From: Watersipora subatra
Lineage: Eukaryota
Reading direction: 5' to 3'
Length of the DNA: 64,000 nt
Assembly: GCF_963576615.1 (NCBI RefSeq)
Contig: NC_088708.1
Location: 42,797,115-42,861,114, forward strand
Made by a program: the position numbers and the translations under genes. Of this stretch, positions 4,325-25,957 are shown one piece after another; the stretch's first letter is position 1; each line of letters opens with the position of its first letter. The notes beneath the pieces were generated by a model, which saw only the letters and a list, made by a program, of their open reading frames with translations, was not told the origin of the DNA and ran no database searches.

Positions 4325-4576
4325 GGGGAAGGCAATCTAAGCAGCAGTCTTGATGCAAAGAACTACCACAATGAGCTGTCAAAGATTGCCGAGGAGAGGC
4401 ACAAAATGAGGCAGCTAGAAAGAGTGAGAGACACCCAGGAGGAGCTTAAGCATGGAGAAACTTGGAATGACTTTTGGGGAAAGCCAGGTGCAGGTGCTCC
4501 AAACAGCAAAGATCAGGTGTTTAAAAGGGCTAAATTTGACAATACTCTACACGGCAGGCAAGATAAGAATGGTTTG
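4325..4576 (+). CDS. Exon 5 (GEGNLSS...HGETWNDFWGKPGAGAPNSKDQVFKRAKFDNTLHGRQDKNGL)
   Basis: It is 84 codons between a cttttag acceptor and a GTGAGT donor. It contains a second GKPGxGAP motif like the one in exon 1. Confidence 0.6.
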
Positions 4577-4941
4577 GTGAGTGAAACTCTTTACATGTAT
4601 TCTTCTAACACCTGTGGGGTATTGTCTCATCAAGCACCTGCAGCTCTTGTCTCATTCCGTACTTGAAGCTATTATTATTGACACGTACGAATGTTGTCTT
4701 ATCAGACACCAGTTCCTCGCACATTACTCACCTGCAGTTCTTGTCCCGTCAAAACTGACAGGCCTTGTCTAATCACACACCATCTTTGGTTTCATGATAT
4801 GCATGTACCTGCAGATCTTGTTTAATTAATCATACATGTGTGGCTTTAGTCTCTTGTCTAATTCGAACATTTAAAACCACTTGCTGACAAGTTTCAACAA
4901 GGTATTCACTAAAATTTACATAAGATCTTTCATTTCTTCAG

Positions 4942-6241: not shown

Positions 6242-6463
6242 TTAAATTTCTCCGAGTGCCTCCAACTCTTTACAGAACTTCTTGTGAGTAGGCCAATGAA
6301 GTTTTTGACAATTGTTTGAAGTGCAGTAAAATGCCAGCCGGCATCGTGTGCATTGTTTGGGCTGCCGACTGCCACAAACATGACAAACTTGTGCTTCAGC
6401 CGCTTTAACTCTGTTGCCGTTGATGGCATCAGTAAGCATGGCCACCGCGCTCGGACCGCTGCC
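6242..6463 (-). CDS. ANKMY2: ANKMY2 terminal coding exon with MYND zinc finger (GSGPSAVAMLTDAINGN...CHVCGSRQPKQCTRCRLAFYCTSNNCQKLHWPTHKKFCKELEALGEI*)
   Basis: The MYND C4-C2HC spacing is present and it matches human GSDPTAFSVLTQAITGQ...[41 protein letters not shown]. A ttttacag acceptor precedes it and the stop TAA lies at 6242-6244. Confidence 0.8.
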   Translation of the reverse strand, partial: GSGPSAVAMLTDAINGNRVKAAEAQVCHVCGSRQPKQCTRCRLAFYCTSNNCQKLHWPTHKKFCKELEALGEI

Positions 6464-6649
6464 CTGTAAAAGACAGTCAAACACGAATAATTTAGGTTAC
6501 CAGTAGGTTAGTTACTACATTAGCCTCCTTGAAGGTTTTGCAAAAGTGCTAGTTGTAGAAGAGAAAATTTCTGCATGTGAATAGCCCATGTTGGTAAGTG
6601 ATTAAAAAAATAACATGGTACTGGATTGCATTAAAAAACTGATCCGCTC

Positions 6650-6800
6650 ATGTTTTAGAATGATATAGCTATAGTGCAGTACTCCATCTACCGTAAAACC
6701 TTTATTCGAACGCCATGACGCTCTATTTTTCAACCCTTTCCTTAGAGTGGCGTTGTATTCTTCAAACACCTCGTCAGAATGTTGAGAAAATATATTTAAT
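6650..6800. repeat. Dispersed repeat copy, found again inverted at 47330-47460
   Basis: The sequence cgaacgccatgacgctctatttttcaaccctttcc matches the reverse complement of ggaaaggttgaaaaatagagcgccgtggc... at 47390-47440. Confidence 0.4.
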
Positions 6801-7860
6801 CCTTTCACGGGTGAATCGAAAGTCGCCTATACTTTGCACTCTCCTTCAGGCGGTTGAATATTAGACCTTTTGGATGCAAAAAATATGCTAACTTACCTCC
6901 AACTTATCTTAGATCTCTAAAAAAAATATGCGCGAGGAAGCTGATACGTGTTTCTACCAGTTGATATCTATTGCTTGCAATTAACCTACAATGATCTTAT
7001 AGCCTACATTGACATTTGTTGGAGCTTTCAAGTTTTTTATTTCATTGTAAAGTTGAAGGCATATTTTCATTTTATAACTATATATCACAAGGTTGCATAA
7101 ATGCTCATTGAACTCATCGATATGTTTGCTACAGTTTGCAGTGAAACTAACTTTTTGTGTGCAATAGAAGAGGAATGATGAGCGTCGATCCATTGTAAGC
7201 TGAGTTTAGATTACCGCAATCATGCTTTTAAACGATATGCTATAAATCTGCAAATTTATAAGTTTTACAATAATAATAATAGCCTATCAAATGCTACAAA
7301 TATATATTTAAGAACAAGTGACGTAAAAAAGCCATAATTATACATGCAGAAACAAAAATTAACATTTTAACATAAATAATAATTAACATAAACACTTTTG
7401 AAGGAAAAATATCAGCATCGTTTGCTCAGCCAGTTGTGTTCTGATTGTTGCTTCTGTTTGAAACCATTTCATATTCTTCGGGCTGTTCAATAACTTTCAC
7501 AGTGTCCTCCTGACTTCAAACCGCCTTCTGCACAGCTGAGTTAGTCGATATTAGCGACCAAACATTTTTAGCAGATAAAAACTTTTACGCGATGCACTTC
7601 ACTAGACACTTCTTGTGCGAATAAAAATAAACCGTGTGTAATTATAATAGTCTCAAAATGTTAGTCTCAAAATGCGAAAACTTTTTCTCACATACATCGA
7701 AGTATAAAACCGCATTAAAAAAGGAACCACTATTAGCCTGATACAGTTACCAATTATTTCTATGGTGTTTCAATCAAAGAAAAAACTACGATTAGTACGA
7801 TTTTGTGGACACTTATTTTGAACACTTGCTATGGTAGGTTTGTAAAGATTAAGAATGTCA

Positions 7861-8000
7861 AGTAGTGGCGTTCAAATGGAAGTGACATTCAATTAAAAGA
7901 TGGCTCTCTATTTTCCAACCGTTCTCACATAGTGGCGCTCAATTAAAGGTGGCGCTCAAATAGAGGTGGCATTCAAATGTAGGTGGCATTCAAATATAGG
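7861..8000. repeat. ~16-bp tandem repeat (GGTGGCRYTCAAATRT), ~6-8 copies
   Basis: The period is visible directly. Confidence 0.6.
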
Positions 8001-8255
8001 TTTTATGGTTTTTCCTCTTTTTAAAATTATTAAGTGATTAAATCTGTAAAATAATAATTTTCTAAAAATAGCCATAAACTCATGTATGAAATGATGACTG
8101 AGTGAGCTTATTAAATATTCCACAATAGATTTACAAAGCTTGTGTGCTTTTGCTTTGGCCTGTTGCACTATTTGTGTGACAAGGAGCGGCAAAAACCTGA
8201 AACATTTGAGCCGTGGTAAGCGCTGGTGCTAACAAGTGACGGCGCTACACCTAGC

Positions 8256-8698
8256 GGCACAATACCTACCTATGTCGGCACAATACCTACCTATGTCGGC
8301 ACAATACCTACCTATGTCGGCACAATACCTACCTATGTCGGTACAATACCTACCTATGTCGGCACAATACCTACCTATGTCGGTACAATACCTACCTATG
8401 TCGGCACAATACCTACCTATGTCGGCACAATACCTACCTATGTCGGCACAATACCTACCTATGTCGGCACAATACCTACCTATGTCGGTACAATACCTAC
8501 CTATGTCGGCACAATACCTACCTATGTCGGCACAATACCTACCTATGTCGGCACAATACCTACCTATGTCGGCACAATACCTACCTATGTCGGCACAATA
8601 CCTACCTATGTCGGCACAATACCTACCTATGTCGGCACAATACCTACCTATGTCGGCACAATACCTACCTATGTCGGCACAATACCTACCTATGTCGG
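8256..8698. repeat. 21-bp minisatellite, ~21 copies (GGCACAATACCTACCTATGTC), in an ANKMY2 intron
   Basis: The copies are near-perfect. The period of 21 is divisible by 3, so it gives ~200-aa ORFs in three frames on both strands (8226-8834, 8236-8766 and 8229-8879). Confidence 0.9.
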
Positions 8699-9232
8699 TA
8701 ATCTGTATAATTGTTATGATTGTTATGCTCGGTGTGGTGAGCTCCATAAGGCTTCTGAGGTGGTAAAAAAGAGACTGATTAACATGGTTGTAGGGTGTGT
8801 ATCTATTTTTGGCTTTAATGCTAACTACTGTTGATCTTGGGGGTTGGTTTTTTTCCTGATAGTGATAATAATAATGCATTCAGTTTATTGTAAATTATGT
8901 CTACCCTAGGACACTTATGTATTCGCCACATCTAACTTTCGCGTTTTCGCGGAGTCATCCTTTCGCGAAAATTTCATGTGCGAAACTAAACTATCATAAT
9001 GAACGAGCAAAAACGCGAAATTAAATAGCTTTGATCATTGATAGTCCAAAAAATAAATGGCAGCAAGCGATCAAATTGCATTATCGACCTCGCCCACACC
9101 ATTTTACCTGCGGTTCACAATTACAAACTAGTCCCAAATTGAAAGTTTTTTCTTATGGGTGAACCAAGCCCGTATTCCTTGGGGCAGCTGGCCGGCTGAG
9201 CCATCCCAACTTTTTAGGAACTTTTCGCGGCT

Positions 9233-9345
9233 ACACAGTAAATACAGTCAAACTCGGACAACTTGCCCTCTGATAAAATGTAACATTTCTTCCCAAACAC
9301 AAGGTTAACTCGAAAGGATTTTTTGGTCCGTTCCCACAATTCAAA
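9233..9345. mobile_element. 5' fragment of the same MITE family, inside an ANKMY2 intron
   Basis: The sequence tacagtcaaactcggacaacttgccctc...ggttaactcgaaaggattttttggtccgttcccaca is similar to the 5' ~110 bp of the element at 49241. Confidence 0.4.
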
Positions 9346-9941
9346 TTAGTCTATGATTCATTTACAGAAAACAATAGCAATTGAATTATAGAGGACTATC
9401 AGAAAAGACTGAGAGCAAGGAAAATTTAATGATGCAAATTCAGTTATGTAAACCGATGTAAAGATTTGTGCAACGGAAATTTCATATGAAAAATAAAAAA
9501 ACACTGTTAAAAATTAACAAATGAAAAGTAATCTATTATTGCATCTTGCATGCCTTCAATCTTTGATTTATATTTTTCAAAACTAAAACTCACTAACTTT
9601 CAATACCTGTTTAGCAGATATCAATTTTTTTCAGCTACCATTAGGATATCACAGAATAGTGAATTACCAAAATGTTGCAAATGCGATGTAAAAAGATTGA
9701 AAACCGCCTTTTTATGGCAATAGATTGCTAAAATTAGGTAGGACGGTTTGGCTAATCAAAGTAAGGAAACTTGGAGCAAATTATTGTTAGTTAAGGTGAG
9801 TTTTAAGCAACTGTGCATTACAGTTGTGATATAGCCTGAGTACCACAGAACCTTTAAGAGACTATACCATACATTGCACATCAACTATAGCGGTTCCCAG
9901 TGGAAAGCTACACATCTGCACAAGCTACACATTATGCTTAC

Positions 9942-10149
9942 AATCTCGTTTTCATTCATCCTTTTGAGCAGTTCACAAAAAACGCTGGAGCCTTTCTGTG
10001 GATATGATTTGAGAGTAGAGCGAACCAATTGGTCAACCTGGTCAAGAAGTCCATCGGAGGATCTGCCAGTGGCCAATCTAGAAACATTAGGAGAGCGGTT
10101 ATCGACAGAGAAACAGTAAGTAGCTCCTGAGATGGCCATAATAAACTTA
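9942..10149 (-). CDS. ANKMY2: ANKMY2 internal exon (...GRSSDGLLDQVDQLVRSTLKSYPQKGSSVFCELLKRMNENEI)
   Basis: It matches human GRASDGFPVYQEKIIRESIRKFPYCEATLLQQLVRSIAPVEI. It is 208 nt between an aataatag acceptor and a GTAAGC donor, entering in phase 2 and leaving in phase 0. Confidence 0.65.
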
Positions 10150-10257
10150 CTATTATTGAAGACTCTATGAGCAATGAGTGGGGTGTTAGCCCAGAGCAGC
10201 AGATGATTATCGCTTTCGTTACGGTTAGTCTATAAACACTGACAAAGGAAATCTCAC

Positions 10258-10466
10258 CTTTTAATAAAAGATTTCCCTGAGTCATTTTTGTCAGCCTTCT
10301 TAGTGTAGTCAATGACACAGGAAAGATAGTGAAACTTAAAAGACTGCGCCTCCTTTCCATCAGGAGGTGGTGTACTCGCCGCTGAGAGTTCATTAAGTAT
10401 TGCTATAAGATTCTTGCTCTCCGTTAGTAGTTCGGGGGTCTTGTGCAGCTCTCGTACCAAGTATAT
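10258..10466 (-). CDS. ANKMY2: ANKMY2 internal exon (IYLVRELHKTPELLTESKNLIAILNELSAASTPPPDGKEAQSFKFHYLSCVIDYTKKADKNDSGKSFIK)
   Basis: It matches human ...LVNENPLLTEEAALNKCYRVMDLI...AMKMHYISCIFQKCINFLKDGENKLDPLIK. A ttttag acceptor precedes it and a GTGAGA donor ends it in phase 2. Confidence 0.65.
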
Positions 10467-10982
10467 CTAAAATTGCAATTAACTTAAGTATTTGAACCAT
10501 TGCATGCGCATAATGAACTGTCTTAAGGAAATATGATATGAGAATATTAGAAACTGTGTCTGATAGATTTCTATTTTCAGCTTAGTCACTAAACTAAACG
10601 TAGATTTACCTTCCCTGTCTCGCTTTGATATATTCAACCACAGGCAACTACCATCTTCAACTCCACGCGATCGCTCATAACTATTAGCAGATGTAATAAA
10701 ACATTAAACTATATTATACTCCCAGGATAACTAAAATATGTAGCCTTTTCGAACTTCTTATAAAAATCGAGAATGCTCATTACAAGCAAAAGTCAAAATC
10801 GAACAGAAACCAGTTTCGATGACTATTGAAGCTTTGCTATCACAAAATTGTAACTAATGTTGATATGGTAACTTCATTAGGAATGCCTTCCAATGAAAAT
10901 CATGCGCAATAACGAAGCAAACACAATTCTTTTGGCAGTAGAAGTTCTCTTCCTACCTAATATCAACTAGATTCTACAAAAA

Positions 10983-11305
10983 ACATTGGGTAAAAATAAA
11001 AAAGACAGCACAGTGACAATACACTACAATAACATCGGGTATAACAAAGACAGCACAGTAACAATACACTTCAATAACATCGGGTATAATAAAGACAGCA
11101 CAGTGACAATACACTGCAATAACATCGGGTAAAACAAAGGCAGCATAGTGACAATACACTGCAATAACATCGGGTATAACAAAGGCAGCATAGCGACAAT
11201 ACACTGCAATAACATCGGGTATAACAAAGACAGTACAGTGGCAATACACTGCAAAAACATTGGGTATAACAAAGACAGTACAGTGACAATACGCTAGAAT
11301 AACAT
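10983..11305. repeat. 45-bp tandem repeat, ~7 copies
   Basis: The unit is ACATCGGGTATAACAAAGACAGCACAGTGACAATACACTGCAATA. ORFs 10974-11289 are translations of it. Confidence 0.85.
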
Positions 11306-12296
11306 AAAGCTTCTGGCTAGCCTGGTTGATAACAGACTGAATATTTAGGATTAAAAATAAAGATGTTTTCTGTGTTTACTAGTAAATGGCACCGCTGCTC
11401 GTGAGCAAACACTCCGAAAATACAAAAGATTATTCCACTTAAAAATGACTTCATATCACCTGCTTTGGGGCATGCTTCATACGAGTCAGTTTCCTTTGAC
11501 CACATAATTGCATACAGTCAGAGAAGATCGTAGGTCGCCAAATGTTATAAAATCTAGTTGGTTGTTTGTACTGAACCCGTAATAGGTCCACAGGCTAATA
11601 AATTGATAAGAGCCTTGTACGTACATTTAACTGATTTTAGTAGTTTATTGTCAAATTTGAGAAGTCAACAATTTTGTGGAGATGTATTAAAAAGTTTTTT
11701 AGTGATGAGATTTGTTTATAGGTTTGGTTAAAAATTGAAATTAAATTAACTTTTTAAACCTGACATCAGACATCGCGGCTGTAATTTTATATACATTGCT
11801 GTTTCTAAAAATCGAAAGATTTTTTCCAAGGATAAATTTTTCAAGAAAAGCATCTTGAAAAACAAAATCTTTGTAGCGTTATGTAATTTTTTGCGCGGTA
11901 GATTGTCTCCGGAAGGTTGTCTCCGAAAGGTTGTCTCTGAAATGCAAATGTTTGAAGCATGGAAACGGTAATTGTGTACCATTACTGTTACAAGAGGTGA
12001 AATTGCTGACTTACTGGGTGAAGATTGCAAGAAGAAATGAATGAATGGAATGGCTTCAGTAAATCTGGCTTCAACTTGGGTTTTGAGTCTTTTCCTACAA
12101 TATGGTAAATTTTTGGGATCACAACTTGAATATACATGTACAAACTTTGGTACATTTTTTACTATCGCAGAACTTTTATATATAAATAGACTCCATAAAA
12201 GCAAAAGATGTTACATGTAGAAACAGTTGATAAGGGAAAATGGAAGTATATAGATTGTTGAGCAAAAACTTGATAAAACATGACGTTTACAGGTTA

Positions 12297-12411
12297 TGGA
12301 TAATCTACTCAATGGGTGGATAACATACTCAATGGGTAGATAACCTACTCAATGGGTTGATAACCTACTCAATGGGTAGATAAGTAACTCAATGGGTAGA
12401 TAATCTACTGA
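12297..12411. repeat. 20-bp tandem repeat, ~6 copies (GGATAACCTACTCAATGGGT)
   Basis: The period is visible directly. Confidence 0.8.
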
Positions 12412-12770
12412 TGCACACTTACACACCTTATGTTTTATACACCAAATTCATTGACATTATGTGAATCTCTATCTACTATATAAACGACAAAAAATCTGTC
12501 TGTATATTTGTGTGTATATGTGTGTGTTAGTCTACCTTATAGAGCGGTCTTTCCTTTTTCGATTCAGTCGTACGAAGCGAACAAAATTAATATGAGTACC
12601 GTACTTTTCGGAGTATTAGACTTTTTTAATGATTTGAGCCATGCGGCTTATATAAGGGGGGCGGTTATTCTGCGGTTTTTTCTTTCAACCCTAGGGCGCA
12701 TTAACCGGAATTTCCGCTTAGTGCGCCTCTAGTGGTGAAAGAAAGCTTTTGTTTTCGCTTCGAAAATTAC

Positions 12771-13205
12771 CTACCAAAATTCTACTTCAAAATGGTAAGT
12801 ACTTCTCATTCATTGTTGTATTGTCTATGAATTGCCACGTCTCCACTACTTGAAAACGTTGCATTTGCCACTGTTGGTAATCGTAAACATGTTCATTTTC
12901 TTCCGCGGCTGAGTTACTTTTACTTTTTTTCCCGCTATGAGTATTACAGCTACTACAGAATTCGCACGGGTATTGCTACTGCGTTTTACCTACTAAATTT
13001 CTACTTCAAAAAGGTAAGAACTTTTCATTCATTGTTGGATTGTCTATGAATTGCCAAATCTCCACTATAATAGACGTTGCATTTGCCACTGTTGGTGATA
13101 GTAAACGTGTTCATTTCCTTCCGCAGCTGAGTTACTTCTATTTTTTTCCAGCTACAAGTACTACAGCTACTACAGAACTTGCACAGGTACTGCACGTTGC
13201 GATAG
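12771..13205. repeat. Tandem duplication of a ~220-bp unit (2 copies); each copy carries an ATG/AAG-GTAAGx donor-like site
   Basis: Copy 1 (ctaccaaaattctacttcaaaatgGTAAGTacttctcattcattgttg...) is ~85% identical to copy 2 (ctactaaatttctacttcaaaaagGTAAGAacttttcattcattgttg...). Confidence 0.7.
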
Positions 13206-14394
13206 GTGACGGTGAGAAGAAAGAGAGCAGCTGGTACCGACTTACTGTCAGCCTGCTTTAGCCATGGCCAGTTGTACATTGCCTGCTCAAAAGTAGGCAC
13301 AAGCCAAAACGGTTTGTTCATACACCCGGCAGAAAAACAAAAGATGTTGTTTATCCGCAAGTGTTGCGTTGAATTAACATTGTGTTATTGTTATGTCATG
13401 CTTGCATTAAATTAACATTATGTTATTTTTATATAATGCTTCGTTCCTCATGTTCTGCTATACGTACATATTATCCACATGCAGCATTTTCTCACATGTT
13501 TTTCAGTATATATATATATTTTCATGCATTCGTTTTCCTTATTTATCTCATTAAAAGGCTATCATGTTGGCATTATGTTTTATTATTGTAAGGTGCTAAT
13601 GCTGTCTGCTTTGACATCATACTGTCTGTGCTGTTATACATATAAATTTTATCAACAAAACCACATTACTGCTGCACTGTTTGGATATACCATGTCAAAA
13701 CGCAGGTTATAGACGAAGAACTGGTGAGCCATGATCAGTGTTTTAAGCATACATGTAGAAGTGTCCATTCAATAAATGCTGGTGATAGCAAAATATTTTG
13801 TAGAATTTCTTCAAAGATGCAAAATTTTTCAATACTGCCAGGTTGAAGAACTTCAGTTTGCCTAGCAATGTCAATTTCATTATCAGTTCTCTGTACAAAA
13901 AATAGGACAACTCCAATTTGAGTGGTTTGAGACTGATGCATTGTACATGTAGACTAGCTGTAAAATACAGTGCAGATTTCCATTGTTCTCCCAACATTAT
14001 TGAAATGTATGACTGCATATGTGTATGCATACACTGATCAAGGCAACAATTTTAGTAGACTGCATATTTGGAGCTGTTTTACAGTATGAAAGACAACTCT
14101 CAATAAATCGCTTGCTGTACGTGAATCTGTTCCCGTAGACATGTAATGTAGCTAATTTTAGACTACTGGTACTGAACTCACCATCTACTGACTAAGGAGA
14201 GACCTGTTACCGGTATGTATAATTTAGGCAATGAATCCCCTACCTCGCTTTAGAAAGTAGTTAAGTTGCTAAGTATAGCAATTTGAAAAAATTTGATAAT
14301 TGCTGATTAATTTATGAAACAGTAAAATATTTTCGTTCAAATTACTTGTTGTAGCTTGCACACAACAGGCAATCTATCAGACAATATCATATAG

Positions 14395-14490
14395 TCTATC
14401 AAAAAAAAGGCTTTTAGATCAAGGCTTACAGTTTACTGTAATGAGCCCTACAATCTACTAAAACAGGATTTGCAATCTATTAGAACAGAG
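14395..14490. repeat. Degenerate ~22-25-bp tandem repeat (..ACAATCTATTAGAACAGAGCTTATA..), also present at 16940-17125
   Basis: The same repeat family flanks a ~2.4-kb segment that contains the 39-bp array. Confidence 0.5.
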
Positions 14491-16471
14491 CTTATATGGG
14501 TAAGATTTTTTATTATGAGAATCGCCAGATTTCGGAACCTCTTTTAAAATTTGACTGAAAATATACTTCAACGGGTAATTTTGCATCAATGTTTTCTATT
14601 TTCATAATCTGCAAATTTTATTCCATCATAAACTGTACAATATAATGAATATCGACCAGAAATGAAACTATAATAAATGTTTTATTGGTCATTGATGGTT
14701 ATGTATCTATGAGTATTATTCAGTTTTATCATTGCTGTTCTCTGTGTAAAAATAAAATATAACTTATACAATGTTTTCAGAGTAAAGTGAAACAACTTTT
14801 GTTACCGTTTAAATATAATTCATAAGTACTTTAATATCCAACAGTTTTAGCATTCTTAATACAATAGAATAGAGTGTCCACGTTGTCCATTAAAATTGGC
14901 CACAACCAAAATAGGCTTACTCGTATAAATTATCATAATTACCTCACCACTCCATCCAGACTCCGGACAAACTTTTAGTAAAACACGACATTTGACAATT
15001 CTAAAAATCTTTTACAATAATAACTGGTTTAAAACACAGGCGTTACAAAAATATTTACATCGTAAACGTGACACTCTTATTCAACTATGATTATCTTGCC
15101 AGCATCGCGAATTTAAAATTATCCCAGTTTCCACCTTCAACAATGAAAAAAGAATTATATACTATTCTAGCAAAATAGAATATACTGAAAAACCGCAAAA
15201 GAGATTATTGCGAATAGCTTCCTATTGGTGTCAACATCCCTTATTAGATATAGCAATACTGATGAGGGTATGTATGAGCAGGGATGATCATCACAGTCGT
15301 TACTCTTTAGTGTACGTATGGCTACATTTCCGTGAGTGGTTTGCGATATGAAAAAAACATCAGGACTGGTAGTAAAGTATCATTTCAATTAAATTTTCTA
15401 TATAATATACTGTTTACTATGCGCTTGTCTTACACTAACAGGCAATATAATGTGCTTTTGAGATGTTCTTGTCATTTGTTATTCTCTTGATAAATAATGA
15501 TACAGAAAAGCAAACATTAACAAAATCAATCTTATTTTTAGCAATACAGATATTAATATAAATACTATATTGTTTCTTGTATTATATTATTCATGTACTC
15601 TTACATGAAATTGAATAGTATTTTTAAACATGATATCTAACAAATATTTCATATATACATTTGTATTATGTGTATTACCACATATTCATTATTTATTCGA
15701 TTTTAATTTACCATTTACATTTATTATATAAATAATAATCATTCAATTATTTATCAATATGATATAAAAGTACGTAGTAATAATAGCTATATTATTAATA
15801 ATTAATAAAAATGGTACAATACTACATTAAAACATCACCTCTTAAGCTCAGATTACAACTGCTACTAGTGAATATTTACTGTTCATATTCTATAAAATGT
15901 TTATTAGTAGTGTTTCAGATGTTAGTCGGCAAAAATTTTACCAGCCACAAAAGTTACTAATTTTTAGTCAATGGAGATGACAAGTAAATAAATTTTAAAT
16001 ATCGTTCAATAAATATAGATAGATTTATTGACTGCAGAATCTGGTAATTGCTGCAACTTTATTTGTCAACTATACATATCAAATCAAATCTCTATTAAAA
16101 ATCTATTACTACGAACAAATTAATTCCTTTGTAATATTCTACATTGTATAATAATAATTCAATACTGTATGACAAATGTGGATACAGATGTGTTGATACC
16201 TGCAAGTAAGCGTCGGAAGTGAACTATTTATTTAATTGTGAGTTGTCTCCTTTGTATCTAAGTTTTAGTGATTAGGATCAAGTATGCAAAGCACCGAAAC
16301 AGCGTACTATCCTTCTGCAAGTCAGTAAACACAAAGTGTCACTTCATGCTGTGCTACCGAGTTCACTAGTGTCTTATGGCTATCATACTGTCACAAGTGT
16401 TTGCATTCCTATGAGACGTCACAAAATTGTCAATACATCATGGACCAATAAAGTAATTTAAAAATTTTTTT

Positions 16472-16905
16472 TAATTCTAAATAGCTATAATGTTATATTA
16501 TGACATATTAAAATTCTAAATAGCTATAATGTTATATTATGACATATTAAAATTCTAAATAGCTATAATGTTATATTATGACATATTAAAATTCTAAATA
16601 GCTATAATGTTATATTATGACATATTAAAATTCTAAATAGCTATAATGTTATATTATGACATATTAAAATTCTAAATAGCTATAATGTTATATTATGACA
16701 TATTAAAATTCTAAATAGCTATAATGTTATATTATGACATATTAAAATTCTAAATAGCTATAATGTTATATTATGACATATTAAAATTCTAAATAGCTAT
16801 AATGTTATATTATGACATATTAAAATTCTAAATAGCTATAATGTTATATTATGACATATTAAATTTCTAAATAGCTATAATGTTATATTATGACATATTA
16901 AAATT
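16472..16905. repeat. 39-bp tandem repeat, ~11 near-identical copies
   Basis: The unit is AATTCTAAATAGCTATAATGTTATATTATGACATATTAA. Confidence 0.9.
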
Positions 16906-16939
16906 TGACAAAGTATGAAAAGCTTTTAAAATTCACAAA

Positions 16940-17125
16940 ATTTGACTCAAATAAAAAATCTTGCCCATATTCTATTAGAAAGAGCTTATAATCAGTTAAA
17001 ACAGAGTTTATAATCTATTAAAGTGAGGTTTACAATCTATCAGAACAGAGCTTATATTCTTTTAGAAAAGACTTGCAACCAATTCGGAGAGAGCCTAAAA
17101 TCTATAAGAACAGTGATTTAAAGTT
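16940..17125. repeat. Second block of the degenerate ~22-25-bp repeat
   Basis: See 14395-14490. Confidence 0.5.
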
Positions 17126-18607
17126 ATTAGACAGTTTTTAAAATATTACAACTATGTAAAAAAATAAATAAGCTAAAGGAATTTAAACAATAATGCAGCA
17201 AAATAATAAAAATACTATAAATAAAATCAATTTAAACTACATCCAGTGTAAGTGAAAGTAAGTTAAGCAGAAGCATATTTCTACCAGATGTTTTACCACT
17301 GAACTTACGTATTGTTGAGCCAACACTTCTATTCACACATCTCAAAGTTAAAGCAACATTAAAAACCCTTTTACTGAATAATTGTTATTAATTTGGTCTT
17401 TACATTTAATACAGAATAGTAGTATTTTTCTACATATTTCATATATACTTGTTTTGTTGCTATGTCATAGCCTCAAGAACAGAACAAACATAAAAGGATG
17501 CATCGTTATAAGAATAATTGTTGAAACATCAGTTTTTACATACAAAGTAAATATTAAAATGAATTAGCTTCAAATTTTGATATTTGGTTGTAAAACATAT
17601 ATTTAATGTGTCAAAATGTAGCAAATAAAGAGAAAACAACTCCTGATGACGCTGAAGAATATGCCTGTCATGTCTATACTTACAAATTAACAATAATGTT
17701 ATATATGCAGATAGAAACTCTCATAAACAAGTTTAAGAATATTCCTTTAATCATATGACCATTTTAGAGAAAGTTTTCCTGCCGTTTTTTTACATACAAA
17801 CCAAATATCAGTATGAATCAACTTGGCATGTTGAGGTTTGACTTTGACGTTTTAGTTGAAGAGTGAAAGACATAAGCTGTACTGGAATGAAAACTGTACC
17901 TTAATACTCAGCTGTCTCGCCACCAGTAACTGAAGCTTGGCATTCTATATTCTATATCTCATTCAAACTACCATCTTCCATGGATGAACAAATGTCAAAT
18001 TATTAATTACAGACAACCAATTCTTCAACTTACATTAAAGATGAACAAACCTGAATGTACGGAAAAATTTTCATACCATTATTATATATTACTAGCAGTA
18101 AGCCCGGTGCTGCCAGAGAAATCTTTAACACAAATTGCTACATTTCTTTCAAGACAATCCATGAAGGCATTAATTAAGGACATTGTACTTAATGCATGCT
18201 GCAGACGCATTGTTGAGTTTCTAATCAAATGGGTGTTTAAGAGGCTGGTTTCTCAGTAACTAGACAGAGTTTGAAAACCAAATATGTTTGGCAACCTGGT
18301 GGAAGGCACGAAGAGTGTGCGCGAGAAGCTTTGATAAAACTGGTTCAAAATGTTCACACAGACTTACAAGAACAAACAAACACACAAACAGACAAAGTGG
18401 TTTGTTGATAAGGCTTTAGAATTCTAATCATCACCAGTTTTCTGAGCTCTAGTCAAACCTTGCATATCATTGAAGCTGACAAGCCTCTCCATTTCTAGCC
18501 ATGAAAGACTTGCACCGATGTCTCTCACGCAGTCCAATAATAATCTCCTGATAGTCAACCATTTTTTTAATAATAGTAAAAGCTATGAAGCAGTAAAAGA
18601 AGAATAC

Positions 18608-18682
18608 CTGTGGTTTTGGTAAAGCGCTGCAACTTTTTCGACGGATAGAAGTTCATAATTACTCCTCCGATGTGGTGTTGTG
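18608..18682 (-). CDS. ANKMY2: ANKMY2 exon 5 (AQHHIGGVIMNFYPSKKLQRFTKTT)
   Basis: It matches human QHDCVTIINNFFPRERLDYYTKPQG. It is 75 nt between a cag acceptor and a GTATTC donor, with consistent phase. Confidence 0.7.
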
Positions 18683-18789
18683 CTGAAGAGATAAGAACTT
18701 ATAAGTAGCAAATCGACAAGAACAAGTATTAAAAAAAATATTTTAGTTTCAGTGCCAACAGGAGAGAGGATCCTGAATTATCAAACATA

Positions 18790-19395
18790 GAGTTTAAAGA
18801 GAAACCAATGTATCACCATATACAGCTATGGTATTCATAGAGTTAAGAAAATAACCAATACGTCGTCATATATAGCTGTAATATTCAGTTTAAGAGAAAC
18901 CAATGTATCCCCATATATAGCTATGGTATTCATAGAGTTAAGAAAATAACCAATACGTCGTCATATATAGCTGTAATATTCAGTTTAAGAGAAACCAATG
19001 TATCCCCAAATATAGCTATGGTATTCATAGAGTTAAGAAAATAACCAATACGTCGTCATATATAGCTGTAATATTCATAATTTAAGAGAAACCAATGTAT
19101 CACCATATACAGCTATGGTATTCATAGAGTTAAGAAAATAACCAATACGTCGTCATATATAGCTGTAATATTCATAGTTTAAGAGAAACCAATGTATCAC
19201 CATATACAGCTATGGTATTCATAGAGTTAAGAAAATAACCAATACGTCATCATATATAGCTGTAATATTCATAGTTTAAGAGAAACCAATGTATCACCAC
19301 ATACAGCTATGGTATTCGTAGAGTTAAGAAAATAACCAATACGTCATCATATATAGCTGTAATATTCATAGTTTAAGGAAAAACCAATGTATCAT
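18790..19395. repeat. ~48-bp tandem repeat organised as a ~96-bp two-variant higher-order repeat, ~6 higher-order copies
   Basis: The two variants ACCAATGTATCACCATATACAGCTATGGTATTCATAGAGTTAAGAAAATA and ACCAATACGTCGTCATATATAGCTGTAATATTCAGTTTAAGAGAA alternate. The array begins ~54 bp from the ANKMY2 exon 4 donor. Confidence 0.85.
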
Positions 19396-19448
19396 CGACT
19401 GTAAGCTGCAAGCTTCAATAATTTTATCTGCAAAAGCGACATTCTTAC

Positions 19449-19547
19449 CAACAAATGCTGCCATTTCTCCAGCTGTCCTGTTGACAGAATTCCGAACATC
19501 AACTTTTGCTCCTGCATCTAGCAGCATATTTACAACATTTTCATTAC
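19449..19547 (-). CDS. ANKMY2: ANKMY2 exon 4, ankyrin repeat (GNENVVNMLLDAGAKVDVRNSVNRTAGEMAAFVG)
   Basis: It matches human NKDITWVMLEAGAETDVVNSVGRTAAQMAAFVG. A cacag acceptor precedes it, a GTAAGA donor follows it, and the phase is consistent with its neighbours. Confidence 0.8.
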
Positions 19548-20301
19548 CTGTGAATACACAAAAATTAGGCTCAAGTGTAAAGCAATTTAACCAGCATCAT
19601 GCATGCTCTGGCAAAATGTAGGCACAAGTAGGCATCCAATCGATATGACAAAGTAATCGATTAAAATCTTAGACCGGAAGATAAACCTACCTAAATTACA
19701 TTTATAACGTTTAGACCAGTATTTAATGCACTGATGCATGGCCAAAGGCATCGTGCTGATGCAAGGGTGGAGACAAAGGTCAATCACAGATGTCAATGTT
19801 TTCTTTATTATGACTTAAATACTGTTATAATAATTTGAATGAACCTCAATGCTAAATGAATGCTAATTTTTAATCAAATCATACCTTGCACTGGTGATAT
19901 GCTTCCAAATGAATTTTTATGTTAAATGCTAATTAAAAATAACGATTTTTTAAGTTTAGTTGTATGAGACAAATGGTGTTTAAATGATGAACTTATCACA
20001 GCTGATAACTTTTACAAACTGAGAACTGAATTTGACAATAACAAAAATAGTGCATGAAGCGTAACTAATGCAAAGCATCACTGGATATAGTATCAACATC
20101 CCCTACTCACGCTAATGAAAGCTTGAGTAGGGGATGTTGGTACTGAATATCAGCTTGTATACCAAGGTCTAAGACCTCCACCTCCACCCTCCTCCTTTAA
20201 GATAACACAATGTAATTAATAGCATTGCAATACCACCACAGTTAACTATCCAAATTCATGTACTGATGTGATCATGTGAACATGTACAAAGCAGTTCAGA
20301 C

Positions 20302-20440
20302 CTGAAAGAGCTCCAAACATAAGCGCTGTGTATTTGTTTTCGTGTTTGTCAGAATTTACATCAGCTCCATGATCCAGTAGTATTTGGCACAGTTCCTCAT
20401 TACCTCTGAATGAGGCATGCTGGAGAGCAGTCATGCCGTT
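20302..20440 (-). CDS. ANKMY2: ANKMY2 exon 3, ankyrin repeats ([46 protein letters not shown])
   Basis: It has a classic ankyrin-repeat consensus and closely matches the recalled human ENGMTPLMHAAYKG...HGADVNCHQHEHGYTALMFAALSG. It lies between a ttttgcag acceptor and a GTCTGA donor. Confidence 0.8.
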
Positions 20441-20454
20441 CTGCAAAACAAGTA

Positions 20455-20635
20455 GCGTGTAACAGATAACATGTATCATGTAACGTATAACCTGTGGCAT
20501 GTAGCAGGTAACATTTAACAGGTAACATGTAACAAATAACCCATGGCATGTAGCAGGTAACATGTAGCATTTAACAGGTAACATGTAACAGATAACCCGT
20601 GGCATGTAGCAGGTAACATTTAACAGGTAGCGGAT
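20455..20635. repeat. ~60-bp tandem repeat, 3 copies, abutting the ANKMY2 exon 3 acceptor
   Basis: The unit aacaggtaacatgtaacaaataacccatggcatgtagcaggtaacatttaacagg is repeated. ORF 20246-20605(-) runs from the real ankyrin exon into this array. Confidence 0.7.
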
Positions 20636-21188
20636 ATCAAAGTTGGTTCAAGATTCAACGCGCTACCACAAAACTTCTTGCGTATGCTCAATACTAACTA
20701 TCTATAAACGCGAGTAATACTAGCGTACAAACTTGTGTTTAGTTAATATAATGAACAATAGAGACCTTCTAAAATCAAAAATTTACATCATAAGTTGAAC
20801 CTTTGTGTTAATAATAATTACTACAAGCAGATGCCTATAAAATCATGTAGTTAGTCTAAGAGTTTATGGAAATAAACAAACATAAAGAGAATATCTTCCC
20901 GTCATTGGATTATGAATATACATAAATCTTAAATGATGTCTCTACTCTCAGAGCTAAAAAATATAACAATTGCGCAAGCTTAGGTAACTAGGTACACCAG
21001 ATATTTTCTATAGATGAACAGATGATGAGACACTGGTCAATGCTGCCTATGTAACTATTCATGCCAACCTTTCATCACACCTACTTTTTATTATAACACG
21101 GTAAGTGCAGTACATTTTGTTTACTTCTCCCGATATTATCACAGATTGTGTCATAATGAGCTTAAAAATTGCAACTCTAAGCTACTAA

Positions 21189-21257
21189 CCATATCGACCA
21201 AATCCACATTGAAAGAAGGATTCTCTTCCAAAAATGTCTTCATCCCCATAGTATCAC
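21189..21257 (-). CDS. ANKMY2: ANKMY2 exon 2 (G)DTMGMKTFLEENPSFNVDLVDM
   Basis: A tattag acceptor precedes it and a GTTAGT donor follows it. The phase links exon 1 (phase 1) to exon 3 (phase 0). The peptide resembles human TVQEAGTLLSSKNVRVNCLDE. Confidence 0.5.
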
Positions 21258-21644
21258 CTAATAGGACGATATATGACAGATGCATAATGTTACAACAGCC
21301 AGCAATAAAAAACAGCGTGATATGGTTAAACAGCGTAGTTCCAAGTGAAAGTACAAAGTTCACATTGTTTTTATTAGGATTTGCTGACATCCTGTTTACA
21401 AGTTGCTTCTCAACAAATGTGCTGACGCTGTTTTTAATTCATAGCTACCTGCTATCTATGGCTCTCAGTTAGAGACAATTAATATTAAGCAAAAATAGGA
21501 AATCAATATCTTTGGTTTCTCTCCTACTCGAGCATAAGTGTGACGTCATCACAAATGAACAACAAATCTCTTGTATATGTTAACATTGCATTTTAATATT
21601 TCTATCGCTTATTAGAAATTAAAAACAATTTAAAAACCTCTTAC

Positions 21645-21717
21645 CTTTTCCATCTTCCACCATTGCTAACCATTTTTTCTCAAGCGGACTCTTTTCAGTT
21701 CCTGCAGCCGCAGCCAT
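21645..21717 (-). CDS. ANKMY2: ANKMY2 ortholog, first coding exon (MAAAAGTEKSPLEKKWLAMVEDGK)
   Basis: The ATG (reverse complement of 21715-21717) follows an in-frame TGA immediately upstream. A GTAAGA donor ends the exon in phase 1. The peptide aligns to the recalled human ANKMY2 N-terminus ...EEKELLEVIGKG. Confidence 0.6.
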
Positions 21718-23205: not shown

Positions 23206-25957
23206 TATGGTTGCCAGATGGATGAGCAAAAAATACAGGACATATTGTGGCTGGTAGTGGGTTCTGTATTTAAAAGTGTATAGTGTCTTGCATATAGTTA
23301 TATGGTAAATACATGATATGATGACATGATATATATACTAATATAATAATGATATACATGCATATAATGGTGTACGGTAGCGTATATTAGACCCTTGCTT
23401 AGTATACATTGTCTCTTCTTCTCTTCAGTCTTAGTCACAATATTTTGTTGATTGTCTACACTTTTTTAGCAATGCATCATCTTTTAATACAGCAGCATAA
23501 AACGCTTTGCAGTTTATTTTTCTATTGCATGCCACTTGCAGCTCTGATTTTATAAGTACAGTTGATGCTCTGTTTCTTTCTTTTGTCCATTTGACTGTCA
23601 TGAGTGAAAATACACACTCAGGGCCGGCATTGCTGGTTGGTATGGAGAGTATATATGATACAAGCTTAGTTGTTTCCGGAAATAGTGGTGCGCATTCAAG
23701 ATGTAACTCCACTTCTCAGCTGGGGAGCTTAAGGACTTGATGTTATCCCAGGGAGTTCTTCTGATACAGCTATGCTCCTCGTACAATAAATCCTCATCCA
23801 CATGGCTTAGATTGAGATCATTCTTTAAATCAAGCATGTGTTGGTAGCTAGAGATGCCTTCTATCAGTGCAAAATGAGTTGCTTTGTATGAATAAGAGTC
23901 TTCGGGGAAGTCAAACCATTTCTCTAGGCAGGCACTAGCTAAAAAAACATGAACAATTTTGCAATCTGCATTATTTGTATTGTAAGCTGTATGCATGTAT
24001 GTGACCTATTACGCTTTTTCTAACTTCTACCGATCCAAAATGTGTCACATAAAATGGCTGTTATTTTTGGAAGTGATCATTTATCATAGTATGCAGCATT
24101 ACACATACACACCATTGCCTAGGAATCCATGAAGATCTGTGATGATTATCCGGTGTTCATTGATGCTCAATTTACTCAATATTGTTCTCGCTGTACTACC
24201 AAAGAATTTGTCTTCCATTCTGTCTTTCAAGGAGCCTCTCAGTACATTCATAATGCCATAAAGCTCCATTATTGTACCATTGTTCTTCTCGAGTTGCAGA
24301 ACAGCCTTCTCAAATACTGTGGGAATATTTGATATAAAGCTCAGATAGAGTTCCACAATGCATTCCTTTGCTTGAGAATTGTCAGTCCCAACCATTTTGA
24401 GTTTCAGTAACTGTTTAACAGCAGTTGGTCAATCATCCTCGAGTGAGATAAAATAACTTTTCATTGCTAGTAAAACTTTCAGTAATCTCTCAACTGCAGG
24501 TTCTAATGACAGCCATCTTGTGGGCACATGTCTTAGTAGCTCACACCACTCTATATCAAGAAATTCATAAAACTCCTTGAGCTGCTGTCTTCGGCCTGCT
24601 GAAAAAGAAAAGTGATTGAAGACCCGTATTACTATTAACTCCACATCCACATCTAATTTGGAAGCAACATTCTTTAAGCAATTGTGCACGAGATGAGCAC
24701 AACAGTTAGCTTGTAGTAAGTTTGGTTGTTCTATCTTCAGATGTTGGTAAACAGAATGGTGCACTCCATAGTTCACAGATGCATTGTCAGCACTATACGC
24801 TGTCGCCTTCGACATGTCAATGTTGAATTTAGCTAGCGATTCCTGAACAGCTTTAGCTATGCTTATAGAGTCTTTTTTAGGGTCTTCATAGAAATCCAAT
24901 AAAACAGATTGAATGTCATCATGTGGTGTATAGAATCCCAGCATTACTGGAAACATTTCTTGGTTCCCTTTGTTACTAGCATCTCGCAATACTAAATGGT
25001 AGCAACCCATCTCGTAGTTTTTGCACAGCTGTACATACACTGTATGGTGCCAACACATTCTTGACAGTAGCCTCAGCTTTTGTTCGCCCACAAGATATCT
25101 GCTTTGCAACAACACTCCCAGAGTATATAATCCTATCCAATTTCATATCACAGTCCAATGAATTATAACTCAAGCTATGTTTCACTGTGTGAAATACTTT
25201 GGTAAGCTCAGCAGCAGTTATTTGACTTTGCTGAGAGCTTTCTGTAGAAGCAAAAAATGTAGACAACAGCTGATTATTTTTAGCTGAGCTTACACTTTTC
25301 TTATGGTACTTGGTTTCTTCATGCTGTTTAAGGTCCGCTGCTCCTGATGCGATGGAGAAGTCTTTGTTGCAAAGACTGCAGCGCACTTTGTATTTATCTC
25401 TGCTCACAGGCTTTATCCATATGAATTTCTTTTCCCATGTTTTGCTATATACTTTTAAGCGCTTGGATTTCTTTGGTGGAGTATTGTGAAGATCTTCAGC
25501 TGTCGAAGAACTTACCTCAGACATGCTGACTGATGAACTACCAAATTTATTGTGGGCTGTGGCTGAAAATTTCATAATTCGCTAGCACTTTCCTGAATCA
25601 ATGGGGTGGGAAGAGGCATTTCCCTTCTATCCATTGCCAACTCCACAATAGATAGAAGGGAAATTCCCACTAATTACAGCTGTTTGTTTGGCTGTAGTTA
25701 TATGCATAGATACCTATATTATATATCTATCAATCATCAATGGTTATTGTCATATAATATTCCAGTTGGCTCAATGACCAATACAGCTGCAATGGTTGTT
25801 GTATATGTATTACATGTACATGTATTTATAGAAAATAGTTACAGATACAAAATAACTCTCACCTGAAACTCAAATACAGGACAGTTAGGGTCAAATACAG
25901 AACACAGACCAAAAAAACAGGACTATCCTATCAAATACAGGACATCTGGCAACCCTA
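23206..25957 (-). mobile_element. hAT-superfamily DNA transposon, 2752 bp, with 15-bp terminal inverted repeats and an 8-bp target-site duplication
   Basis: The left terminus is TATGGTTGCCAGATG at 23206-23220. The right terminus at 25943-25957 is the reverse complement of TAGGGTTGCCAGATG, so the terminal inverted repeats match 14 of 15. The flanking 8-mers ATCCCCAC (23198-23205) and ATCCCCAT (25958-25965) are the expected hAT target-site duplication. The subterminal motif AAATACAGGACA occurs once at the left end and four times at the right end. The interior encodes a hAT transposase on the minus strand. Confidence 0.75.
23431..25575 (-). pseudogene. hAT transposase coding region, interrupted by at least three frame changes (decay or introns)
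   Basis: ORFs 24976-25575, 24429-25115, 24099-24395 and 23431-23712 are in different frames. The N-terminus carries a C2H2-like zinc finger (RCSLCNKDF...HEETKYHKK). The middle has YSADNASVN...CCAHLVHN and TRWLSL. The C-terminus has the hAT dimerisation motif SIPTSNAGPECVFSLM. Confidence 0.7.

What the first reader, a model, noticed from the sequence alone, without database searches (positions are those of the whole stretch)
6242..21717. ANKMY2 ortholog: eight exons recovered over 15.5 kb with at least six unrelated tandem arrays in its introns, and at least one middle exon still missing
The N-terminal ankyrin exons and the C-terminal MYND exon align well to recalled human ANKMY2. The exon phases show that at least one exon (equivalent to human ~LDKEPKLPPKLAGPLHKIITTTNLHPV) must lie between 10466 and 18608, and I could not find it by eye. 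That interval holds the 39-bp, 20-bp, 45-bp and 220-bp arrays. Two arrays abut splice sites: the ~60-bp repeat immediately 5' of the exon 3 acceptor (20441 onward) and the 96-bp higher-order array 54 bp into intron 4. The predicted protein stops right after the MYND finger (…KELEALGEI*). The human protein has a longer acidic tail.
Basis: partly seen in the sequence, partly recalled or inferred. Interest (0 to 1): 0.5.

Follow-up and report, generated by a model that had tools for sequence, protein, structure and literature searches.

The report
Ordinary ANKMY2 gene, missing exon found

Summary
On the minus strand, 21717-6242 carries a single ANKMY2/DAF-25 ortholog. The missing exon is at 12094-12015 (80 nt, GKDSKPKLKPDLLKPFHSFISSCNLHP). 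It enters in phase 1 and leaves in phase 0, which closes the frame gap. [quoted passage not shown]

Best database hits are ANKMY2 proteins at 38-42% identity (E ~1e-78). Seven of eight introns sit at the same alignment column and phase as in a limpet, a scallop and a sea cucumber. A neighbouring gene is about 100% identical to a Watersipora subatra protein, so the window is most likely from chromosome 1 of that bryozoan.

The short C-terminus is real in the sequence: 9 residues follow the last zinc ligand. It is at the low end of the ortholog range (2-142) but not unique.

Six solid tandem arrays (21, 45, 20, 39, 97 and 56 bp), some minor ones and a two-copy 218-bp duplication lie in the introns. 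They are mutually unrelated and cover 17% of the gene. The rest of the window is also repeat-rich.

Lineage-specific details are one lost intron, a 2-codon exon-boundary shift and a C-x4-C spacing in the MYND finger. Interest is low.

The parts
21645..21717 (-). Exon 1, 73 nt of CDS. Start ATG at 21717-21715, with an in-frame TGA two codons upstream. The donor is GTAAGA and the exon ends in phase 1.
   Evidence: the N-terminus aligns with ortholog N-termini
21190..21257 (-). Exon 2 (68 nt), the N-terminal cap of the ankyrin domain. Ends in phase 0.
   Evidence: intron positions match Lottia, Mizuhopecten and Holothuria
20447..20629 (.). Degenerate 56-bp (21-bp sub-period) tandem array in intron 2. 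It ends 6 nt from the exon 3 acceptor, so the 3' splice region of intron 2 lies in its last unit.
20302..20440 (-). Exon 3 (139 nt), ankyrin repeats. The length is identical to the Lottia, scallop and sea cucumber exon.
   Evidence: (76 tblastn HSPs, best E 2e-18)
19449..19547 (-). Exon 4 (99 nt), ankyrin repeat.
   Evidence: (60 HSPs, best E 5e-11)
18791..19394 (.). 97-bp x6.2 higher-order tandem array (two subunits of about 48 bp, 72% alike). It fills 79% of intron 4 and starts 54 nt after the exon 4 donor.
18608..18682 (-). Exon 5 (75 nt), AQHHIGGVIMNFYPSKKLQRFTKTT. Ends in phase 1.
   Evidence: 24 HSPs
16473..16905 (.). 39-bp x11 tandem array, 99% matches, in the AT-rich part of intron 5.
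12767..13193 (.). Two-copy tandem duplication, period about 218 bp, 85-91% identity, in intron 5.
12299..12409 (.). 20-bp x5.6 tandem array in intron 5, about 200 nt upstream of the new exon 6 on the sense strand.
12015..12094 (-). The acceptor is ttgtAG in phase 1, and the donor is GTAAGT in phase 0.
   Evidence: 27 ortholog tblastn HSPs; homologous to the 86-nt exon of Lottia, Mizuhopecten and Holothuria; the residues fold at pLDDT 76-95 in the AlphaFold model
10996..11305 (.). 45-bp x6.9 tandem array in intron 6.
10258..10466 (-). Exon 7 (209 nt), helical middle region. Starts in phase 0 and ends in phase 2.
9942..10077 (-). Exon 8 (136 nt), helical middle region. The length is identical to the Lottia exon.
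8255..8698 (.). 21-bp x21 tandem array, 98% matches, in intron 8.
6242..6463 (-). Exon 9 (222 nt). It holds the linker, the whole MYND finger (CHVCGSRQPKQCTRCRLAFYCTSNNCQKLHWPTHKKFC), then KELEALGEI and the stop TAA at 6244-6242. It corresponds to two exons in the mollusc and echinoderm orthologs.
   Evidence: (56 HSPs, best E 8e-15)

Best explanation
The region is one intact protein-coding gene on the minus strand. It is the Watersipora subatra (Bryozoa) ortholog of ANKMY2/DAF-25, with nine exons and a 366-aa product: three N-terminal ankyrin repeats, a family-specific helical middle region and a C-terminal MYND zinc finger.

By homology (inferred, not tested here), it acts as an adaptor or chaperone needed to deliver membrane guanylyl and adenylyl cyclases to cilia.

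The gene structure is the ancestral bilaterian one, with three lineage-specific changes:
- The phase-0 intron that splits the MYND finger elsewhere is lost.
- The exon 6 donor lies 2 codons earlier.
- The K/E/D-rich C-terminal tail is absent.

The intronic tandem arrays are independent, mostly young minisatellites of a repeat-rich genome. They are most likely neutral passengers rather than parts of the gene's function.
For: Gene model:
- Nine exons, all with AG acceptors and GT donors. The phase chain is 1,0,1,1,1,0,2,0 and the ORF is 1101 nt.
- Pfam hits: Ank_2 at E 5e-15 (residues 30-113) and zf-MYND at E 9e-9 (residues 320-357).

Family assignment:
- The 56 best database hits all carry both ankyrin and zf-MYND Pfam domains, and most that have a source name are called ANKMY2. 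They come from molluscs, echinoderms, vertebrates, arthropods, cnidarians and flatworms, at 33-42% identity over 85-99% of the query, with best E 6e-78. The next hits are generic ankyrin proteins at E 2e-28 or weaker.
- The model aligns collinearly with 16 orthologs from start to stop.
- tblastn of the 56 orthologs finds one set of exons only, including 27 HSPs at 12104-11991.

Gene structure:
- I reconstructed exact exon-intron structures for Lottia, Mizuhopecten and Holothuria ANKMY2. Seven of eight introns are in the same alignment column and phase. Exon sizes 139, 99, 75, 209 and 136 nt are identical to Lottia.

Protein integrity:
- The query keeps 65 of 82 positions conserved in at least 85% of orthologs (79%). 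That is similar to the mite (78%), tapeworm (78%) and fly (83%) orthologs.
- The AlphaFold2 model has mean pLDDT 88.3 and pTM 0.86, with the exon 6 residues folded.

Source organism:
- The BTBD1-like protein of W. subatra maps at 94-100% identity (near-identical) over five exons at 56342-27188. Its source contig of 79,350,317 bp matches the 79.35 Mb length of chromosome 1 (PMC12902671).

Function of the family:
- DAF-25/Ankmy2 is required for ciliary localisation of a guanylyl cyclase (PMC2991253).
Against: No transcript evidence could be consulted, so the splice junctions are predictions.

No W. subatra ANKMY2 protein appears in either protein collection. The model therefore could not be compared with an existing annotation. 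The adjacent plus-strand gene is absent too, so this absence says little.

The protein is rather divergent: 40% identity, an Ala instead of the invariant Gly at residue 127, and C-x4-C where 72 of 72 homologs with a recognisable MYND finger have C-x3-C. Some functional change cannot be excluded.

The function was not tested.
Confidence: 0.9

Rival explanations
1. The exons belong to two different genes: an ankyrin-repeat gene at 21717-18608 and a separate MYND gene at 10466-6242.
For: A 6.5-kb AT-rich intron, full of repeats, separates the two halves. The frame did not close without the missing exon.
Against: Exon 6 at 12094-12015 bridges the halves in the correct phases. The middle region, which is neither ankyrin nor MYND, is ANKMY2-specific and aligns collinearly with orthologs. 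Intron positions across the whole gene match orthologs. The whole chain folds as one unit with pTM 0.86.
Confidence: 0.02
2. The locus is a decaying or functionally shifted copy: a pseudogene in the making, or a paralog. It has lost the acidic tail, changed a zinc-ligand spacing and accumulated minisatellites because constraint is relaxed.
For: Identity to every ortholog is only about 40%. The invariant Gly127 is replaced by Ala. The C-x4-C spacing is unique. The tail is 9 residues, at the low end of the range. No annotated W. subatra protein was found in the collections.
Against: The ORF is intact across nine exons, with canonical splice sites and no frameshift or stop. All eight MYND zinc ligands and 79% of family-conserved positions are kept, as in other fast-evolving lineages. 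The predicted fold is confident. Short tails occur in other orthologs: 2, 3, 9, 12 and 13 residues. C. elegans DAF-25 is a functional ortholog with only 388 aa and 32% identity to mouse (PMC2991253). Bryozoan genomes are known to be strongly rearranged (PMC11789643); that their proteins also evolve fast is my own recollection and was not checked.
Confidence: 0.06
3. The intronic tandem arrays are functional, for example as splicing regulators, small-RNA sources or enhancers, and are concentrated in this gene for that reason.
For: Two arrays abut splice sites, at 6 nt and 54 nt. Array count is mildly enriched in the gene, p = 0.011 post hoc. Several arrays are 96-99% homogeneous.
Against: The arrays share no sequence with one another. 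There is no Rfam or tRNA hit. A 3.7-kb 203-bp satellite sits in an intron of the neighbouring BTBD1-like gene, and other arrays lie outside genes. Tandem arrays are therefore a regional or genomic trait. Canonical splice signals are intact next to the arrays.
Confidence: 0.04

Closest known systems
ANKMY2 (vertebrates) / DAF-25 (C. elegans): ankyrin repeat and MYND domain-containing protein 2
   Same: The architecture is the same: three ankyrin repeats, a helical middle region and a C-terminal MYND finger. Similarity is collinear over the full length. The gene structure is shared with mollusc and echinoderm orthologs, with 7 of 8 introns in the same column and phase.
   Different: Identity is only about 40%. 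There are 9 residues after the MYND finger, against a median of 62 in the 53 first-search homologs with a recognisable MYND. Zinc ligands 5 and 6 are spaced C-x4-C, against C-x3-C in 72 of 72 homologs. The MYND-splitting intron is absent. The exon 6 donor lies 2 codons earlier. Gly127 is replaced by Ala.
Short-tailed ANKMY2 orthologs: P0013 (360 aa, Logan SRR8690377), P0312 (371 aa), the Galendromus occidentalis protein P0053 (344 aa), and Crassostrea virginica isoform X3, P0012 (371 aa)
   Same: These proteins also end 2-18 residues after the last MYND cysteine. A tail-less ANKMY2 is therefore not unique.
   Different: They come from unrelated lineages, so the tail was probably lost or shortened independently. 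All of them keep C-x3-C.
Intronic minisatellites (VNTR-type tandem repeats) of animal genomes
   Same: The arrays are head-to-tail, with units of 17-97 bp and 4-21 copies. Several show high within-array identity, and one has a higher-order (2-subunit) structure.
   Different: Nothing distinctive was found. Length polymorphism, the defining population-level property, could not be tested.

Membership tests
ANKMY2 / DAF-25 | N-terminal block of ankyrin repeats (three) | tested here: met
   Pfam Ank_2 E 5.1e-15 (residues 30-113), Ank E 3.4e-13, Ank_4 and Ank_3, all above their curated cut-offs. Helix pairs H52-58/H62-70, H86-93/H96-104 and H119-125/H129-137 appear in the model.
ANKMY2 / DAF-25 | C-terminal MYND zinc finger with all eight ligands (C4-C2HC) | tested here: met
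   Pfam zf-MYND E 9e-9, 35.7 bits against a cut-off of 22.7, profile positions 1-39 of 39. Ligands C320, C323, C331, C334, C340, C345, H353 and C357 are present. One deviation: ligands 5 and 6 are spaced by 4 residues instead of 3.
ANKMY2 / DAF-25 | Full-length collinear similarity, including the family-specific middle region; best hits are ANKMY2 and nothing else | tested here: met
   The 56 best hits all carry both ankyrin and zf-MYND domains, and most that have a source name are called ANKMY2. E runs from 6e-78 to 1e-45 with 85-99% query coverage. The next hits are generic ankyrin proteins covering 28% of the query or less. See also alignment A1.
ANKMY2 / DAF-25 | Shared gene structure (intron positions and phases) with orthologs | tested here: met
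   Seven of eight introns are in the same column and phase as Lottia, Mizuhopecten and Holothuria. One is shifted by 2 codons in the same phase. One ancestral intron is missing.
ANKMY2 / DAF-25 | One-to-one orthology (reciprocal best hit; no second copy in the genome) | not testable with these tools
   Only this 64-kb window of the genome is available. There is a single set of exons within the window.
ANKMY2 / DAF-25 | Transcribed and spliced as modelled | not testable with these tools
   No RNA-seq access. No W. subatra ANKMY2 protein or transcript is in the collections.
ANKMY2 / DAF-25 | Required for ciliary localisation of membrane cyclases | not testable with these tools
   Known for C. 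elegans and mouse (PMC2991253; titles). Inferred here by homology only.
Minisatellites / VNTRs | Head-to-tail arrays of units of about 10-100 bp | tested here: met
   TRF rows; in-register copies.
Minisatellites / VNTRs | Copy-number polymorphism between haplotypes or individuals | not testable with these tools
   This would need the alternate haplotype assembly (GCA_963576605.1, named in PMC12902671) or population reads.

The most novel reading that the evidence does not exclude
Bryozoan ANKMY2 may have a remodelled C-terminal module. It has no acidic tail, a MYND finger with a C-x4-C spacing not seen in 72 other family members, and a fused MYND exon. Together these could change which partners the MYND finger binds. 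Separately, the very stable 90-nt hairpin in intron 3 (20075-20160) could be an undescribed intronic microRNA precursor.
Probability: 0.12. Interest if true: 0.3.

Novelty: new member of a known kind. Interest (0 to 1): 0.12.

Why it matters
The main value is for annotation. The report gives a complete, evidence-backed nine-exon model of a conserved cilia-trafficking gene in an under-studied phylum, and no protein for it was found in two very large collections.

It also shows that the ancestral bilaterian exon-intron structure of ANKMY2 is retained in a bryozoan, a phylum whose chromosomes are reported as heavily scrambled. The structure differs by one clear intron loss and one small exon-boundary shift.

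Nothing here challenges current knowledge. The tandem arrays illustrate how minisatellite-rich these introns are, and why an 80-nt exon in a 6.5-kb repeat-filled intron is easy to miss.

Tried and rejected
Look-ups of P0121 and P0032 found nothing on record. I therefore obtained no annotated genomic context for W. subatra.

2. The exhaustive representative search was dominated by giant multi-ankyrin proteins. Its 20 or so single-stretch full-length hits were all 40% identical or less, so no closer (for example bryozoan) ortholog exists in that collection.

3. I searched for a hidden tail exon. No ORF rich in E/D/K/S/Q lies on the minus strand downstream of 6242. There is no usable donor between the last Cys codon and the TAA; the only candidate is a poor GTTGGA. 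Poly(A)-signal-like hexamers start at 5811. tblastn with low-complexity filtering off found no minus-strand hit below 6242.

4. I tested whether the arrays belong to transposons. There is no cross-similarity between arrays and no substantial dispersed copies; two minor arrays each have one 48-bp hit elsewhere. No terminal inverted repeats flank them. No long ORFs lie in the introns other than repeat-derived ones.

5. Rfam (gathering threshold) and ARAGORN found nothing over the whole window. A permissive Rfam scan around the intron 3 hairpin gave only generic hairpin matches far below the gathering scores.

6. A single weak plus-strand tblastn hit at 13336-13548 (one of 56 queries, E 6e-4) was dismissed as chance given the number of queries.

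7. The PDB sequence search found only generic ankyrin proteins and DARPins, with no solved ANKMY2 relative.
Full report
**What is there**

At 12158-11991 the frame reads ...GKDSKPKLKPDLLKPFHSFISSCNLHPV...

Reading the splice sites base by base gives a nine-exon model. Coordinates are high to low on the minus strand:

| Exon | Coordinates | Length (nt) |
|---|---|---|
| 1 | 21717-21645 | 73 |
| 2 | 21257-21190 | 68 |
| 3 | 20440-20302 | 139 |
| 4 | 19547-19449 | 99 |
| 5 | 18682-18608 | 75 |
| 6 | 12094-12015 | 80 |
| 7 | 10466-10258 | 209 |
| 8 | 10077-9942 | 136 |
| 9 | 6463-6242 | 222 |

- Every intron is GT...AG.
- The phases run 1,0,1,1,1,0,2,0.
- The CDS is 1101 nt, a 366-aa ORF ending in TAA at 6244-6242.
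- The new exon 6 enters in phase 1 and leaves in phase 0.
- An in-frame TGA lies two codons upstream of the ATG at 21717.

**Is it ANKMY2, and is it one gene?**

- **Domains.** Pfam finds ankyrin repeats (Ank_2 E 5e-15, residues 30-113) and a complete MYND finger (E 9e-9, residues 320-357).
- **Database hits.** The 56 best hits among 5.8 billion cluster representatives all carry both ankyrin and zf-MYND domains, and most that have a source name are called ANKMY2. They come from molluscs, a sea cucumber, vertebrates, arthropods, corals and a tapeworm. Identity is 33-42% over 85-99% of the query, with best E 6e-78. After them the list drops to generic ankyrin proteins at E 2e-28 or weaker, covering less than a third of the query.
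- **Collinearity.** A 17-sequence alignment is collinear from the N-terminus to the MYND finger, including the family-specific helical middle region.
- **One set of exons.** tblastn of the 56 orthologs against the whole window finds one set of exons on the minus strand. It gives 27 HSPs at 12104-11991 (best E 4e-4, 52% identity over 31 residues, which is good for an 80-nt exon) and nothing convincing elsewhere.

**Gene-structure test**

I fetched the genomic loci of the Lottia gigantea, Mizuhopecten yessoensis and Holothuria leucospilota orthologs. I then reconstructed their exact exon-intron structures from the annotated proteins.

On a four-way protein alignment, seven of the eight W. subatra introns fall in the same column and phase as in the other species. 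Holothuria lacks one of these seven. Exons 3, 4, 5, 7 and 8 have the same lengths as in Lottia (139, 99, 75, 209 and 136 nt).

Exon 6 is 80 nt here and 86 nt in the three outgroups. The local donor CCA|GTAAGT lies two codons before the usual ...PVK| boundary, in the same phase. This conserved structure rules out the two-gene alternative and independently validates exon 6.

An AlphaFold2 model built on the alignment folds as one unit, with mean pLDDT 88.3 and pTM 0.86. The exon 6 residues (about 152-178) score pLDDT 76-95.

**Source organism**

The long ORF at 55080-56351 on the minus strand is 100% identical to 'BTB/POZ domain-containing protein 1-like [Watersipora subatra]'. That 612-aa protein maps at 94-100% identity over five exons from 56342 to 27188.

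Its source contig is 79,350,317 bp long. [quoted passage not shown] The window is therefore most likely from W. subatra chromosome 1.

No W. subatra ANKMY2 protein is present in either protein collection. The adjacent plus-strand gene is missing too, so this reflects collection coverage and is not evidence that the gene is unannotated or dead.

**The short C-terminus**

The ORF stops 9 residues after the last zinc ligand (KELEALGEI*).

- Among 53 first-search ANKMY2 homologs with a recognisable MYND finger, the tail is 2-128 residues with a median of 62. Five have 18 residues or fewer. Among 19 further representatives the range is 3-142.
- C. elegans DAF-25, a functional ortholog, has 388 residues against 440 in mouse (PMC2991253).
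- No tail-like ORF or plausible donor exists downstream, and poly(A)-signal-like hexamers begin at 5811.

The short tail is real in the sequence and unusual, but it has precedents.

Two further lineage-specific features turned up:

- **Intron loss.** Lottia, Mizuhopecten and Holothuria all have a phase-0 intron inside the MYND finger (...CK(Y/M)|(L/V)(Q/R)YC...). W. subatra has none, so exon 9 is a fusion of two ancestral exons. This is most simply explained as an intron loss.
- **Zinc-ligand spacing.** Ligands 5 and 6 are spaced C-x4-C (CTSNNC), whereas all 72 other homologs examined have C-x3-C.

The protein keeps 79% of the positions conserved in at least 85% of orthologs. That is similar to the mite, tapeworm and fly proteins, so it looks like a fast-evolving but constrained ortholog.

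**The tandem arrays**

TRF confirms six solid arrays and several minor ones within the introns:

| Unit | Copies | Coordinates | Intron | Note |
|---|---|---|---|---|
| 56/21 bp | about 3 (56-bp unit) / 8.7 (21-bp unit) | 20447-20629 | 2 | ends 6 nt from the exon 3 acceptor |
| 97 bp | 6.2 | 18791-19394 | 4 | starts 54 nt into the intron and fills 79% of it; unit is two subunits of 47 and 50 bp, 72% alike |
| 39 bp | 11 | 16473-16905 | 5 | 99% matches |
| 20 bp | 5.6 | 12299-12409 | 5 | |
| 45 bp | 6.9 | 10996-11305 | 6 | |
| 21 bp | 21 | 8255-8698 | 8 | 98% matches |

- The '220-bp array' is only a two-copy duplication at 12767-13193.
- The arrays share no sequence with one another and have no substantial dispersed copies in the window.
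- No terminal inverted repeats flank them.
- They cover 17.3% of the gene against 8.2% of the rest of the window. Ten of 20 distinct arrays lie in the gene's 24% of the window (p = 0.011, post hoc).
- The neighbouring BTBD1-like gene carries a 3.7-kb, 203-bp (7 x 29 bp) satellite in its last intron. Intronic tandem arrays are thus a trait of this genomic region, and probably of the genome.
- I found no sign of function. Rfam and tRNA scans are empty, and the canonical splice signals next to the arrays are intact.

**How it most likely works**

Shown here: an intact ORF, the domain set, family membership, conserved gene structure and a confident fold.

Inferred from homology: the protein acts like DAF-25/ANKMY2, a MYND- and ankyrin-containing factor needed for ciliary localisation of membrane guanylyl and adenylyl cyclases (PMC2991253; later mouse work listed).

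Inferred: the arrays are neutral minisatellites.

**Verdict**

This is an ordinary ortholog of a known gene in a published genome. Interest is low.

Noticed in passing
window 20075-20160 (arms 20089-20113 / 20120-20144), intron 3 of the ANKMY2 gene: A near-perfect hairpin with 25-nt arms, 92% complementary, and a 6-nt gap. The 96-nt stretch 20070-20165 folded on the sense (minus) strand gives -44.1 kcal/mol, z = -8.2 against shuffles. It is single-copy in the window and shaped like a pre-miRNA. It matches no known Rfam family; only generic hairpin hits appear, far below the gathering scores.
   Followed up: partly
window 42070-45809: A 3.7-kb satellite with a 203-bp period, about 18 copies and 87-92% matches. 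It is built from seven 29-bp subunits (higher-order structure). It lies in the 20.7-kb last intron of the BTBD1-like gene.
   Followed up: partly
window 56342-27188, minus strand: A BTB/POZ domain-containing protein 1-like gene with five coding exons (56342-55083, 53314-53120, 49097-49005, 48253-48104, 27343-27188). It is 94-100% identical to a Watersipora subatra RefSeq protein, which identifies the source genome. Hits at 62-69% identity from unnamed ENA/Logan contigs are the next closest relatives.
   Followed up: yes
window 24432-25581, minus strand: Two overlapping long ORFs (237 and 201 aa) in different frames. The only domain hit is a weak BED zinc-finger match (E 0.002, below the cut-off). 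By recollection the second ORF resembles hAT-type transposase cores, so this may be a frameshifted transposon remnant between ANKMY2 and the BTBD1-like gene. This is not established.
   Followed up: partly
window 2704-3072 and 4325-4663, plus strand: Two exon-like ORFs of a gene convergent with ANKMY2. Each carries a GKPG(G/A)GAP motif. There is no Pfam match, and the only homologs are seven short unnamed metagenome/Logan fragments at 59-83% identity. It is an uncharacterised, possibly bryozoan-restricted gene.
   Followed up: partly
window 6328-6345 (codons for CTSNNC in exon 9): The MYND finger has a one-residue insertion between zinc ligands 5 and 6 (C-x4-C). All 72 other ANKMY2 homologs examined have C-x3-C.
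   Followed up: partly
window 12015/12014 (exon 6 donor) and 6463-6242 (exon 9): Gene-structure changes relative to Lottia, Mizuhopecten and Holothuria. The exon 6 donor lies 2 codons earlier (CCA|GTAAGT where the others read ...PVK|GT). The phase-0 intron inside the MYND finger is absent, which I read as an intron loss.
   Followed up: yes
window 1504-1718: A 17-bp x12.5 tandem array (82% matches) outside the gene, upstream of the plus-strand neighbour's exons.
   Followed up: no
window 14000-18000: The central part of intron 5 is markedly more AT-rich (26-29% G+C) than the rest of the window (about 34-38%).
   Followed up: no
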